Source: Escherichia coli (lineage in GTDB: Bacteria; Pseudomonadota; Gammaproteobacteria; Enterobacterales; Enterobacteriaceae). From it: a DNA stretch of 64,000 nt. The stretch is taken from assembly GCF_001677475.2 (NCBI RefSeq), contig NZ_CP015229.1. One strand, given 5' to 3'. Below are positions 9,001 through 12,000 of this stretch, in pieces. The position numbers are program-made. Numbering within the stretch: the stretch's first letter is position 1; every line of letters starts with the position of its first letter.

Positions 9001-12000
9001 ACCGGGAGGAAATTTTAATGGAAACCGTTTTTGATGCACTGAAAGCAATGGGGAAAGCCACGTCGGTAGAACTGGCTGCGCGACTTGATATCAGTCGTGA
9101 AGAAGTGCTGAACGAGCTGTGGGAACTGAAAAGAAATGGCGTCGTTGATAAAACGGGTCACACCTGGTTTCTGGCTGGTGAAGGTGAATCCGGGGTAACC
9201 GAAGAGCAGCCAGCACAATCTGAAGTACCGGATGTGCTGACCGGGGAGGTCGAACAAAAAGTTACCGCGGACATGATGATTGAGTTTATCTGTCAGGATG
9301 GGGCTAAAACGTGTGAGGAACTGGCGGATAAGTTCGGTGTCAGCACTCGCAAGGTTGCTTCCACGCTGGCGGTGGTAACCGCAACGGGACGCCTGGCACG
9401 CGTAAACCAGAACGGTAAATTTCGCTACTGCATGCCGGGAGATAATTTACCAGCAGAGCCGAAAGCTGCATCGGTAGCGGAAACCGATGGTAAAGCCTTT
9501 CCTCAGCCAGCCGGTGTTGCGTTACCGGTACAGAAAGATGCAACACAGGAAGATATTAAAACAGAAACTGTGGCGGACATTGTGCAGTCGCTGCCATCGT
9601 TTACCGAAACGCGTGCGAATGACCTGATTTTACCATCACTGCATCTGGCAAACCGCGAATTGCGTCGGGCGAAAAGCCATGTCCAGAAGTGGGAGCGTGT
9701 CTGCGCCGCGCTGCGGGAGCTGAACAAGCACCGGGATATTGTTCGACAGATTGCTGATTCTTCCCGCCGTGTTGCATCGGAAAAGTGATTGCCGGAGGCG
9801 CTTATGGCAAAAGTATTTACACAAGAAGAGCGGGAAAAAATTAAGGTACAGGTTGTTGAACTTGTGCGTCTGAGCGGGCGCGAGACGTTACGGCAACTGG
9901 AAGCGAAAACAGGTGCGACAAGATATCTGATGAGTGTTCTTGCCAGAGAGCTGGTTGCCAGTGGCGATTTATACAACTCCGGCTACGGGCTATTTCCGTC
10001 TGAACAGGCACGTAAGGACTGGATAAAGGCCCGCAAAAAGATGTCGAAAGCAGCAGTGAAAAAAAAGAGCGACCCGGACCTGGTTTATTCATTACCAGAC
10101 GGAGAAATACGTCGTTACGACAGGCGTCTGAACATAATCTGTCGCGAGTGCCGGAAGAGTGAGGTTATGCAGCGCGTGTTGGCGTTTTATCAGGGGAAAT
10201 TTCAGGAGGTGATGCTGTGAGTACACCTGCAACCATTCTTGATATGTGCTGTGGCAGCCGTATGTTCTGGTTCGATAAGAATGACGACCGGGCGATATTT
10301 AGCGATATCAGAAAAGAAGAGCACACATTATGTGATGGACGACGCCTGATAATTAGCCCTGACCTGATAGCAGATTTTCGTGCATTACCATTTGCAGACG
10401 CATCGTTTCCGGTTGTTGTATTCGACCCTCCGCATCTTGAGCGTGTTGGTGATAACGCCTGGATGGGAAAGAAATATGGACGGCTGAATAAAGATACCTG
10501 GCGTGATGATTTGCGGCAGGGATTTAAAGAAGCCTTTCGTGTGTTGTGGCCACACGGTGTTCTGATTTTTAAATGGAATGAAACGCAAATACCTGTCCGC
10601 CAGATATTGGCACTAACCGACGCGAAACCAATCATCAGCCAGCGCACCGGTAAGAACGATAAAACACATTGGATTATTTTTGTGAAGGAAGCGACCAGTG
10701 GGTAAATCAAAATGCCAGGTTTATGGCAACAAGATAGAACCGTGTACGGCACTGGCAAACTCCCTTGAGCATGATGCTGAATACACGACGCGAAAAGGTC
10801 TGCTGATATACAAAATCTGGAATGAGAATTTAACTCGCGACCCTGATTTAGTGATGTTGCGTTCCGGTGAATTTTCTAAATCACCAGTTCGGGTTTCATT
10901 TTGCCCGTTCTGCGGTGAAAGTCTGAAAACATGGGAGAACAGAAATGAATGAAATTAGAGAAATACCAGTAGAACGTGATGAATATGGCTGCTGGACACA
11001 TCCAGAATATGAAAAGTTCTGTGACGGTCGGGAATATATTTCAACGGAAGAGTTTAGCGCCTGGATGAAGGCAAATAATCTTCAGTGGACTATTTGCAGC
11101 ATGGATGAAGATTATTTAAATCCGGTTGCAGATGACCCCGATATTTCCGCCTGGGAACCGGAACGACCAGAGGGCAATGGATGGTTTATTGGCTCCATTC
11201 ATGATACTGAAGATGGTCCGGTTTGTGTCTGGTTGCGAAACAAGGTGATGGCATAGATGAGAATAGAAAAAGCGAAAGCACAGCTCAGGATAATGCTTGC
11301 TGGTCCGGCTGCGAGTTATATGACACATTCACCAGCCATAAAGAAGGTTCTTGATGAACTGGAAGATAAAGACAAACGCATTGTAGAATTGACAGACGCG
11401 CTTATGCAAATGATTAATGCGTATAAAATCACAATTCGTTCTGGTTACGAACGCATTACTGAATGTGGTGGTGACTGCGATTCACCAGAAAAGATGATTT
11501 CAGAAAATTCAGATATCAGAATGGCAGAGGCTGTTCTGAAAGCGGAATCCAAATCTGAATAATTAAATTCAGCATTGTAATAAAGATTAATCCTTTACTG
11601 GAGGGAACCCTGCACCCTCAATCATCAGGAGGCCGCCCGAAAGGGCGGTAATGAAAAGTGACTGAATTAACCAAAGAGCAATTAATCGAAGAAGCCAAAT
11701 TAAAAATAGCGATTGCGAAATGCTACCCCAGTTCAGGGATGGCACGGGTAGAGGGCGAGTTATTCAAAATTGCACTGGCATCGCTGGAAGCAGAACCAAT
11801 AGGTGCTTTCCACATTGTAGAACAGCAAGTTGACGGAACAAGTTACTATATCAAGGATGGGGAATGGCCTATTGATACTGGGATTATTGAAGTCTACGCC
11901 GCCTCACCGATGACGGTAGTGCTGAACGATGTATCTGGACCTCTTGCTCTTGCTTACAAAGAGCTTACACCTGCGATTATGCGCAACCATATCGCTGTAT

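What the first reader, a model, noticed from the sequence alone, without database searches (positions are those of the whole stretch)
10217..10705. Orphan small DNA methyltransferase in the nin-like region
A 162 aa protein with a DPPH catalytic motif and no adjacent restriction endonuclease may methylate phage DNA to evade host restriction, or act epigenetically on the host. It is unusually small for a complete N6-A/N4-C methyltransferase.
Basis: partly seen in the sequence, partly recalled or inferred. Interest (0 to 1): 0.4.

Follow-up and report, generated by a model that had tools for sequence, protein, structure and literature searches.

The report
Small prophage orphan methyltransferase gene
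This is a real, intact 162-residue methyltransferase gene in the early operon of an E. coli lambdoid prophage; it belongs to a very widespread, already catalogued family of unusually small phage enzymes that probably methylate phage DNA, though I found no direct test of the target.

Summary
The ORF is exactly as described: 10217-10705 on the + strand, 162 aa, with DPPH at residues 70-73. It has a strong Shine-Dalgarno site. Its GTG start overlaps the stop of the upstream gene.

It is not truncated. Relatives from many phyla are all about 150-165 aa and have no target-recognition domain. The predicted fold (pLDDT 95) is a pared-down class I SAM methyltransferase with no helix in the first 80 residues.

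The gene is common and already annotated:
- It occurs in 877 of 5,426 complete E. coli genomes, named "class I SAM-dependent methyltransferase".
- It matches PHROG 954 "DNA methyltransferase".
- It matches PADLOC's Type II and orphan methyltransferase models.
- It is 52% identical to Listeria phage A118 ORF50, annotated "methylates cytosine residues in DNA".

Some records label relatives "N-4 cytosine methyltransferase M.NgoMXV". I could not test that link.

The DNA target rests on inference. The gene sits in phage replication modules across phyla. No restriction enzyme or conserved partner lies nearby. A C5-cytosine DNA methylase is its commonest neighbour. Fold searches do not separate DNA from RNA enzymes.

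Verdict: an ordinary, catalogued phage orphan methyltransferase from an under-characterised minimal family. Interest is low to moderate.

The parts
10217..10705 (+). Coding sequence of the 162-aa small SAM-dependent methyltransferase (GTG start, TAA stop)
   Evidence: PHROG 954 E 3.6e-87. PADLOC PDLC03288 E 3.6e-72 and PDLC03730 E 6.9e-48. AF2 model pLDDT 95.
10204..10209 (+). Shine-Dalgarno sequence AGGAGG, 7 nt upstream of the GTG start
   Evidence: read directly from the sequence
10235..10258 (+). Motif I region (residues 7-14, ILDMCCGS): strand beta-1 plus the SAM-binding loop. D9 is invariant; C12 and G13 are at least 90% conserved.
10304..10312 (+). Motif II (residues 30-32, D-I-R): invariant acidic residue at the end of beta-2, the position that binds the SAM ribose in class I enzymes, plus invariant R32
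   Evidence: invariant columns; strand 26-30. The assignment of function is by analogy with class I methyltransferases.
10424..10435 (+). Motif IV, D70-P71-P72-H73, immediately after strand beta-4: the catalytic tetrapeptide of amino-methyltransferases
10568..10576 (+). F118-K119-W120 at the end of beta-5. K119 and W120 are invariant in the family. Candidate active-site or base-stacking residues.
   Evidence: the role is inferred
9789..10220 (+). Upstream gene (DUF977 / LygF / 'Ren-like'). Its TGA stop overlaps the methyltransferase GTG (GTGA), implying translational coupling. It is not a conserved partner.
   Evidence: neighbours are variable
10698..10952 (+). Downstream 84-aa ORF (PHROG 4030, unknown function). 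Its GTG start overlaps the end of the methyltransferase gene. It is not a conserved partner.
7357..8983 (+). O-like (DnaT-like) and P-like replication genes heading the same rightward early operon
13173..13190 (+). Best terminator-like hairpin (7 pairs, 5 G-C, followed by a T run) downstream of the methyltransferase block and upstream of NinB and Q
   Evidence: a consensus match only

Best explanation
The gene encodes a self-sufficient, minimal DNA methyltransferase that acts on an exocyclic amino group. N4 of cytosine is more likely than N6 of adenine.

**Proposed sequence of events**
1. The gene is transcribed with the replication genes from the early rightward promoter after prophage induction or infection. 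It is translated by coupling to the upstream gene.
2. The enzyme binds SAM through the D9..G13 loop, D30 and D53.
3. The invariant DPPH loop, with K119/W120, holds a flipped base and transfers the methyl group.
4. Because it has no target-recognition domain, it should recognise at most a very short or degenerate motif.
5. It would thereby pre-methylate replicating phage DNA and blunt restriction in the next host.

**Shown:** the intact gene, the fold, the conserved catalytic motifs, the operon position, the absence of a partner or a restriction enzyme, and the family's breadth.

**Inferred:** DNA as substrate, which base is modified, low specificity, and the anti-restriction role.

For: **Family-level matches.**
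- PHROG 954 'DNA methyltransferase', E 3.6e-87.
- PADLOC 'Type II methyltransferase', E 3.6e-72, and 'orphan methyltransferase', E 6.9e-48.
- 52% identity (E 7e-66) to Listeria phage A118 ORF50, whose depositors note 'methylates cytosine residues in DNA'.

**N4-cytosine labels on relatives.**
- 'DNA N-4 cytosine methyltransferase M.NgoMXV' in Klebsiella variicola At-22.
- 'DNA N-4 cytosine methyltransferase' in Streptococcus phage IPP12 and 'Cytosine specific DNA methyltransferase' in phage IC1.
- A review describes M.NgoMXV and its homologues as unusual gamma-class enzymes that make m4C (PMC3874165). The motif order here (I, II, III, then IV) is the gamma order.

**Genomic context across phyla.**
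- The gene always sits in the early replication/recombination module: after the DnaD-like loader in Listeria A006/A118, after the primase in a Porphyromonas phage, and next to a 'DNA methylase' in Gordonia phage Pickett.
- In 124 diverse loci the commonest same-strand neighbour within 3 kb is a C5-type DNA methyltransferase (16 loci). SSB, RecT, RusA and DnaC-like loaders follow.

**Other.** The core is mildly basic: median pI 8.3, with 38 of 52 above 7.5.
Against: **No experiment found.** I found no experiment on any family member in the accessible literature (10 searches).

**M.NgoMXV link untested.** I could not obtain the M.NgoMXV sequence. No Neisseria member surfaced in three protein searches or in the genome scan.

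**No curated DNA-methylase model matched.** Pfam N6_N4_Mtase reaches at best E 1.6e-3, in one of 52 members. NCBIfam gives nothing.

**Solved relatives are not DNA enzymes.**
- The nearest by sequence profile are PH0226, Trm11 and an RsmD-like protein.
- The nearest by fold are generic methyltransferases, Bud23, Trm11 and an rRNA m4(2)C synthase. M.TaqI ranks only 43rd.

**Motif not DNA-specific.** The (D/N/S)PP(Y/F/W/H) motif is shared with RNA m2G/m6A and protein glutamine methyltransferases (established knowledge; also stated in PMC3299994).

**Conservation pattern is unusual.** About 50% identity from Enterobacteria to Firmicutes to archaeal viruses is odd for an anti-restriction enzyme, whose targets differ between hosts.

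**Annotation labels are inherited.** They are not independent evidence.
Confidence: 0.6

Rival explanations
1. The enzyme methylates something other than DNA. The target could be an exocyclic amine in rRNA or tRNA (as in Trm11, RsmC/RsmD or the archaeal m4(2)C synthase), a protein, or a small molecule. The purpose would be host take-over or counter-defence.
For: **Solved relatives.** The closest are RNA or generic methyltransferases, not DNA methylases.

**Annotation.** One RefSeq annotation of a 96.9%-identical gene reads 'TRM11 family methyltransferase'. PGAP otherwise avoids calling the gene a DNA methylase.

**Architecture.** There is no target-recognition domain.

**Conservation.** About 50% identity across bacterial phyla and archaeal viruses fits a universally conserved substrate such as the ribosome or tRNA.
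Against: **Context.** The gene is consistently placed in DNA replication/recombination modules and often sits next to C5 DNA methylases.

**Missing RNA-enzyme features.** There is no THUMP or other RNA-binding domain and no Trm112-like partner nearby.

**Thresholds.** NCBIfam and Pfam RNA-methyltransferase models are not matched at or near their thresholds.

**Database filing.** Models named as restriction-modification methyltransferases, and the phage depositors, file the family under DNA enzymes.
Confidence: 0.2
2. The enzyme is a DNA methyltransferase whose main job is regulatory or epigenetic: timing phage replication or packaging, or reprogramming host genes in the lysogen. Escape from restriction would not be its main role.
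For: It is an orphan enzyme with no restriction partner. The high conservation of the whole protein argues for one fixed target rather than host-specific restriction sites. Orphan phage Dam enzymes with fixed motifs are a precedent (established knowledge).
Against: **Expression.** The gene is embedded in the early lytic operon with overlapping start and stop codons, and has no promoter signal of its own above shuffled background (15 found against 11.5 +/- 3.3 expected). Expression in the lysogen is therefore unlikely.

**Dispensability.** Only 877 of 5,426 E. coli genomes carry the gene. In one closely related prophage, OkiPb01695 (97.7% identity across the matched 66% of window 1-24000), the stretch after the DUF1627 gene carries other cargo instead (fimbrial pseudogene, paa) and no methyltransferase is annotated. 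That argues against an essential role in the phage cycle.
Confidence: 0.12
3. The gene is a decayed or truncated remnant of a larger methyltransferase and has no activity.
For: It is about half the length of known DNA amino-methyltransferases. It has no target-recognition domain, and three helices of the canonical fold are missing from the model.
Against: The same length and the same motifs recur in 119 of 120 hits from across Bacteria and Archaea. More than 2,000 clusters at 50% identity match the query. There are eleven invariant residues. The model is confident and compact.
Confidence: 0.03

Closest known systems
Listeria phage A118 ORF50 / A006 gp44 (154 aa). From memory, REBASE calls it M.LmoA118I.
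   Same: It shares 52% identity over the whole length (E 7e-66). The size, the DPPH motif and the position right after the replication loader gene are the same.
   Different: The host is Gram-positive. Its annotation as a cytosine DNA methylase is the depositors' note, and I found no experiment behind it.
M.NgoMXV of Neisseria gonorrhoeae, described as an atypical gamma-class m4C DNA methyltransferase (PMC3874165; its references 205 and 206)
   Same: It is the namesake of the label given to close relatives. It has the gamma motif order and a catalytic aspartate in motif IV (title of reference 206). The title of the 1999 Proteins paper, as I recall it, says the gene lies in tandem with a C5-type methylase gene. 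That echoes the commonest neighbour found here.
   Different: Its sequence, length and recognition site could not be retrieved, so homology is untested. No Neisseria member surfaced.
Non-specific phage/prophage adenine methylases: Hia5/Hin1523/Nme1821 and M.EcoGII
   Same: They are orphan, phage-borne and lie outside any restriction-modification system. They have a DPPx motif IV and give broad anti-restriction through low specificity.
   Different: Hia5 is 281 aa and its relatives Nme1821 and Hin1523 are similar in size (33.6-38 kDa). They belong to the Dam/M1.DpnII-like family; M.EcoGII is beta class. They still have a divergent target-recognition region and show no detectable sequence relationship to this family.
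M.TaqI-type gamma-class N6-adenine DNA methyltransferases
   Same: They share the linear motif order (I-III before IV-VIII) and the class I catalytic domain. Foldseek E is 5e-5.
   Different: M.TaqI has a large C-terminal target-recognition domain and an NPPY motif. TM-score to it is only about 0.5, no better than to unrelated methyltransferases.
Trm11 / TrmN / RsmC / archaeal rRNA m4(2)C synthase (RNA amino-methyltransferases)
   Different: Those enzymes carry THUMP or other RNA-binding domains, or a Trm112 partner. None is present here, and family thresholds are not reached.

Membership tests
Class I (Rossmann-fold) SAM-dependent methyltransferases | Seven-stranded beta-sheet catalytic fold | tested here: met
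Class I (Rossmann-fold) SAM-dependent methyltransferases | Motif I loop after beta-1 and an acidic residue at the end of beta-2 for SAM binding | tested here: met
   D9 is invariant, C12 and G13 are at least 90% conserved, and D30 is invariant. The loop has only one glycine (CCGS) instead of GxGxG.
Amino-methyltransferases (N6-A, N4-C, N2-G, Gln-N5) | Motif IV (D/N/S)-P-P-(Y/F/W/H) directly after beta-4 | tested here: met
   DPPH lies at residues 70-73. P71 and P72 are invariant, and D70 and H73 are at least 90% conserved.
Canonical DNA amino-methyltransferases (alpha, beta, gamma classes) | A target-recognition domain in addition to the catalytic domain | tested here: not met
   The protein is 162 aa in all. 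Relatives have a median of 4 residues beyond the aligned core, and only 3 of 119 have more than 40. The N- and C-terminal extensions seen in some predicted proteins are mutually unrelated.
Canonical DNA amino-methyltransferases (alpha, beta, gamma classes) | Significant match to a curated DNA-methylase model (Pfam N6_N4_Mtase, N6_Mtase, MethyltransfD12; NCBIfam) | tested here: not met
   The query has no Pfam hit below E 1. N6_N4_Mtase reaches E of 0.001 or better in 0 of 52 members, best 1.6e-3. NCBIfam gives nothing relevant.
Canonical DNA amino-methyltransferases (alpha, beta, gamma classes) | Transfer of methyl to adenine N6 or cytosine N4 in DNA | not testable with these tools
   This needs a methylome or biochemical assay. 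I found no published assay on a family member (ten literature searches).
Small phage methyltransferases of the A118 ORF50 type (PHROG 954; PADLOC PDLC03288 / PDLC03730) | Full-length match to the family models and to A118 ORF50 | tested here: met
   PHROG 954 E 3.6e-87. PDLC03288 E 3.6e-72 over residues 6-159, and PDLC03730 E 6.9e-48. A118 ORF50 is 52% identical, E 7e-66.
Small phage methyltransferases of the A118 ORF50 type (PHROG 954; PADLOC PDLC03288 / PDLC03730) | Homology to the experimentally studied M.NgoMXV (m4C) | not tested
   The evidence is annotation labels only plus a review statement about M.NgoMXV 'and its homologs'. The sequence was not obtainable, and the original papers are not in the library.
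Type II restriction-modification system | A restriction endonuclease gene adjacent to the methyltransferase | tested here: not met
   The eight flanking ORFs have no restriction-enzyme match in PADLOC. PHROGs finds replication proteins or proteins of unknown function. Neighbours in 82 related loci fall into 42 and 46 unrelated clusters.
Trm11 / RsmD-type RNA m2G methyltransferases | Family model above threshold plus an RNA-binding (THUMP) domain or a Trm112 partner | tested here: not met
   The best NCBIfam hit scores 16.5 bits against a cutoff of 242. The profile match to Trm11 has E 0.18 and covers motif IV only. There is no extra domain and no conserved neighbour.

The most novel reading that the evidence does not exclude
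The family may be the smallest natural nucleic-acid amino-methyltransferase: a catalytic core of about 150 aa with no recognition domain, stripped of helices A-C. Two readings follow. Either it methylates DNA almost regardless of sequence, and so acts as a pan-phylum anti-restriction device. Or it acts on a universally conserved non-DNA target such as rRNA or tRNA. Either reading would explain why it stays about 50% identical from enterobacterial prophages to Gram-positive phages, CPR bacteria and archaeal viruses.
Probability: 0.25. Interest if true: 0.55.

Novelty: already known. Interest (0 to 1): 0.25.

Why it matters
For this window it matters little. The gene is a common, already annotated prophage accessory gene.

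The family is more interesting than the single gene. It is one of the most widely spread phage accessory enzymes. It is half the size of characterised DNA amino-methyltransferases. I found no direct assay of what it methylates.

If it does methylate DNA with little sequence preference, two things follow:
- It would help explain how temperate phages cross restriction barriers.
- It would offer a very compact enzyme for methylation footprinting.

If it acts on RNA, it would be a new kind of phage take-over function.

Tried and rejected
**Streptococcus phage SpSL1 cds16.** I asked whether this gene is a relative, because it is a predicted N6-A methylase for which no adenine methylation was detected. 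It is an unrelated beta-class enzyme (BLASTP E 0.013).

**AamA, Hia5 and M.EcoGIX.** I checked these as possible characterised relatives. All are much larger enzymes of other classes.

**A conserved partner that could supply specificity.**
- The upstream DUF977 protein and the downstream 84-aa Cys-rich ORF are not conserved neighbours.
- Extensions in longer predicted relatives are unrelated to each other: single cases of ASCH, DUF6291, DUF551 and zinc-ribbon-like tails. They look like read-through or miscalled starts.

**Finding M.NgoMXV or any Neisseria homologue.**
- The original papers are not in the library.
- 'NgoAXV' turned out to be a different, m5C system.
- A beta-proteobacterial profile and a Neisseriales query (Paludibacterium) returned no Neisseria protein among the best 120.

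**Literature.** Ten searches found no experimental study of the family.

**Not attempted.** I did not run a linker-fused homodimer prediction, because the tool reports no interface measures.
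Full report
**The observation**

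The sequence shows several features directly:
- AGGAGG lies at 10204-10209, seven bases before the GTG.
- The GTG overlaps the TGA of the upstream ORF (9789..10220), in the arrangement GTGA.
- The gene's own end overlaps the GTG start of the next ORF (10698..10952).
- D-P-P-H is encoded at 10424-10435 (GAC CCT CCG CAT), residues 70-73.

The next in-frame start would delete an invariant aspartate, so the GTG start stands. RefSeq annotates the same 489-nt CDS in near-identical prophages.

**The setting**

The surrounding + strand genes are as follows:
- An O-like/DnaT-like replication initiator and a P-like loader (7357-8983).
- A DUF1627 protein, then a DUF977/LygF 'Ren-like' protein.
- The methyltransferase.
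- Several small genes of unknown function.
- NinB (13576) and a Q-like antiterminator (14354).

The left part of the window matches Rac-like E. coli prophages that carry RecE/Bet/Gam/KilR.

None of the eight flanking ORFs tested matches a restriction enzyme model. Promoter-like and terminator-like matches in 5200-14400 are not more frequent than in shuffled sequence. The only convincing hairpin with a T run is at 13173-13190, downstream of the gene.

The gene is therefore an internal, translationally coupled member of the early rightward operon. 'Orphan' and 'nin-like region' are fair descriptions.

**How common it is**

- The 489-nt sequence is found in 877 of 5,426 complete E. coli genomes. 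It is almost always chromosomal and is named 'class I SAM-dependent methyltransferase'.
- The protein is 98% identical to a 90%-identity cluster with 1,099 member sequences.
- In the phage collection, 254 records encode a relative. Hosts include Streptococcus, Vibrio, Acinetobacter, Porphyromonas, Listeria, Gordonia, Lactobacillus, Enterococcus and Staphylococcus, and the set includes a Haloarcula virus.
- An exhaustive search of 1.84 billion cluster representatives gave 2,024 clusters at E of 0.001 or better.
Of those 120 hits, 119 are true relatives, with median identity 52.5%.
- Those hits come from Bacillota, Bacteroidota, Actinomycetota, Fusobacteria, Desulfovibrio, Planctomycetota, the Verrucomicrobia/Lentisphaerae/Kiritimatiellae group, and alpha-, beta- and gamma-Proteobacteria. 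They also include Patescibacteria and the archaea Nanohaloarchaea, Woesearchaeota and Methanomassiliicoccaceae.

**Is it complete?**

Yes. Across those 119 loci the median longest possible ORF is 164 aa, and the median number of residues after the aligned core is 4. Only 3 loci have more than 40 extra C-terminal residues.

Longer predicted relatives (208-318 aa) carry extensions that are unrelated to one another. They have no recurrent Pfam domain, so they look like fused neighbours or miscalled starts.

In a 52-sequence alignment spanning 39-92% identity to the query, eleven residues are invariant: D9, D30, R32, P48, P71, P72, E105, R108, K119, W120 and P138. D70 and H73 are at least 90% conserved.

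**What the fold says**

AlphaFold2 with this alignment gives a confident model (pLDDT 95, pTM 0.89). The strands follow the class I order, but the first helix starts only at residue 82. The segments that normally form helices A, B and C are loops or a beta-hairpin.

Foldseek ranks Bud23, Trm11 and an archaeal rRNA m4(2)C synthase first (E about 1e-6). M.TaqI appears at rank 43 (E 5e-5). All TM-scores are about 0.5-0.6.

A sequence profile against PDB chains gives PH0226 (E 3.6e-5). Trm11 and an RsmD-like protein match only weakly, around motif IV.

The structure therefore proves a SAM methyltransferase of the amino-methylating kind. It does not identify the substrate.

**What the family libraries say**

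- Pfam: nothing significant for the query. Across members there are only marginal hits, to Methyltransf_25/11 and to N6_N4_Mtase (best 1.6e-3).
- NCBIfam: nothing.
- PHROGs: family 954, 'DNA methyltransferase', E 3.6e-87.
- PADLOC: 'Type II methyltransferase' PDLC03288 (E 3.6e-72, full length) and 'orphan methyltransferase' PDLC03730 (E 6.9e-48).

These names record how the families are filed. They do not show that activity was tested.

**The lead to a characterised enzyme**

One member of a close 90% cluster (Klebsiella variicola At-22, ADC57975.1) is named 'DNA N-4 cytosine methyltransferase M.NgoMXV'. Streptococcus phage IPP12 and phage IC1 carry 'DNA N-4 cytosine methyltransferase' and 'Cytosine specific DNA methyltransferase' on their copies.

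Listeria phage A118 ORF50 (154 aa) is 52% identical to the window protein (E 7e-66). Its record says 'methylates cytosine residues in DNA'.

[quoted passage not shown] The motif order here (I-III before IV) is the gamma order, and motif IV starts with aspartate.

From memory only, the 1999 papers of Radlinska and Bujnicki grouped M.NgoMXV with phage ORFs such as those of A118 and phi-g1e. As I recall, they also described ngoMXV as lying in tandem with a C5-type methylase gene.

I could not test any of this:
- The papers are not held.
- Neither the genome scan nor two further protein searches aimed at beta-proteobacteria and Neisseriales returned a Neisseria member among the rows shown.

It remains a lead, not a result.

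**Context as evidence for a DNA target**

In phages of unrelated hosts the gene occupies the same place:
- Directly after the DnaD-like loader in Listeria A006/A118.
- After the primase in a Porphyromonas phage.
- Beside a 526-aa 'DNA methylase' in Gordonia phage Pickett.
- In the early module of Streptococcus phage T12.

In 82 proteobacterial viral loci the immediate neighbours fall into 42 upstream and 46 downstream clusters, so there is no fixed partner.

In 124 taxonomically diverse loci every recurrent neighbour is on the same strand. The commonest, in 16 loci, is a C5-type DNA methyltransferase (PHROG 116). A PHROG 98 protein of unknown function (10 loci) comes next, then SSB (8), an ASCH-like protein by motif (7; PHROG 874, unknown function), RusA-like by motif (6), a DnaC-like loader (6) and RecT-like by motif (5).

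The core is mildly basic, with median pI 8.3.

This is guilt by association. It favours DNA but does not prove it.

**Most likely mechanism**

1. The gene is transcribed with the replication genes on induction or infection.
2. The protein binds SAM through the D9..G13 loop and D30.
3. It presents the DPPH loop, with K119/W120 nearby, to a flipped base in replicating phage DNA and methylates an exocyclic amine.
4. With no recognition domain it can read at most a short or degenerate motif.
5. The progeny DNA is then partly protected against restriction in the next host.

I put about 0.6 on 'DNA amino-methyltransferase used for anti-restriction', with m4C favoured over m6A only by inherited labels.

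The rivals, in order:
- A non-DNA target (about 0.2). The structural neighbours and the odd cross-phylum conservation favour this.
- A regulatory rather than protective role on DNA (about 0.12). The operon position and the gene's dispensability make it less likely: one closely related prophage, OkiPb01695, carries other cargo after the DUF1627 gene and no annotated methyltransferase.
- A dead remnant (about 0.03). Conservation excludes this.

**Verdict**

The gene itself is ordinary. It is catalogued in RefSeq, PHROGs and PADLOC, and the A118 record already annotates its homologue as a cytosine DNA methylase.

What remains open is the biochemistry of the whole minimal family. Two or three simple experiments would settle it.

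Noticed in passing
window 15404-16129 and 16140-16622 (+): Two genes lie between the Q antiterminator and the lysis genes, at the position where Stx phages carry their toxin. One encodes a pertussis-like ADP-ribosyltransferase A subunit (NCBIfam ArtA model, E 2e-76, below its equivalog cutoff). The other encodes a subtilase-family AB5 binding subunit (NF038397, 155 bits against a cutoff of 40). Together they look like an ArtAB/Plt-like AB5 toxin cargo.
   Followed up: partly
window 10698-10952 (+): This 84-aa ORF (PHROG 4030, unknown function) starts inside the end of the methyltransferase gene. It has cysteines at positions 6, 16, 69 and 72, a possible zinc-ribbon-like arrangement. It is not a conserved neighbour of the methyltransferase.
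   Followed up: partly
L001 16167-17216 (E. coli 55989 prophage carrying a 96.9% identical copy of the gene): The same prophage carries a second, 349-aa 'DNA-methyltransferase' just after its antiterminator, followed by three tRNA genes. Some prophages therefore hold both the small enzyme and a conventional orphan DNA methylase.
   Followed up: no
L004 2418-3995; L103 6905-8440; L100, L114, L130, L146, L185, L186 and others: In 16 of 124 diverse loci a C5-type DNA methyltransferase (PHROG 116) lies within 3 kb on the same strand as the small methyltransferase. This suggests small 'methylase islands' in phage early regions.
   Followed up: partly
L019 4477-5124 (and two other viral loci): The gene immediately downstream of the small methyltransferase encodes a protein with a DPPW motif (YTLIYADPPWTY), typical of MT-A70-type adenine methylases. 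I did not check it against a family model.
   Followed up: no
L038 3070-3813; L130 2259-2915; P0150 N-terminus; L004 1934-2284: ASCH/PUA-like proteins recur next to the small methyltransferase, or fused to it in one predicted protein. They appear in 7 of 124 diverse loci and 5 of 82 proteobacterial loci. The reason is unknown.
   Followed up: no
L088 10445-11897 (E. coli OkiPb01695 prophage, 97.7% identical to the window over the 66% of window 1-24000 that matches): In this closely related prophage the stretch after the DUF1627 gene carries a fimbrial pseudogene and the paa (AcfC-family adhesin) gene, and no methyltransferase is annotated. This spot in the early operon looks like an exchange site for cargo.
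   Followed up: no
P0013, P0067, P0071 and about 30 other 248-251-aa relatives: Many enterobacterial relatives are predicted as 248-aa proteins. They share a C-terminal extension (…RRLKHHINRMWLE…) that is absent from the window. This may be a genuine fusion with the downstream gene or a recurrent read-through.
   Followed up: no
window 13173-13190 (+): A strong intrinsic-terminator-like hairpin (AACCCGC-TTCG-GCGGGTT followed by a T run) lies between the block of small early genes and NinB. It may be the counterpart of lambda tR2/tR3.
   Followed up: no
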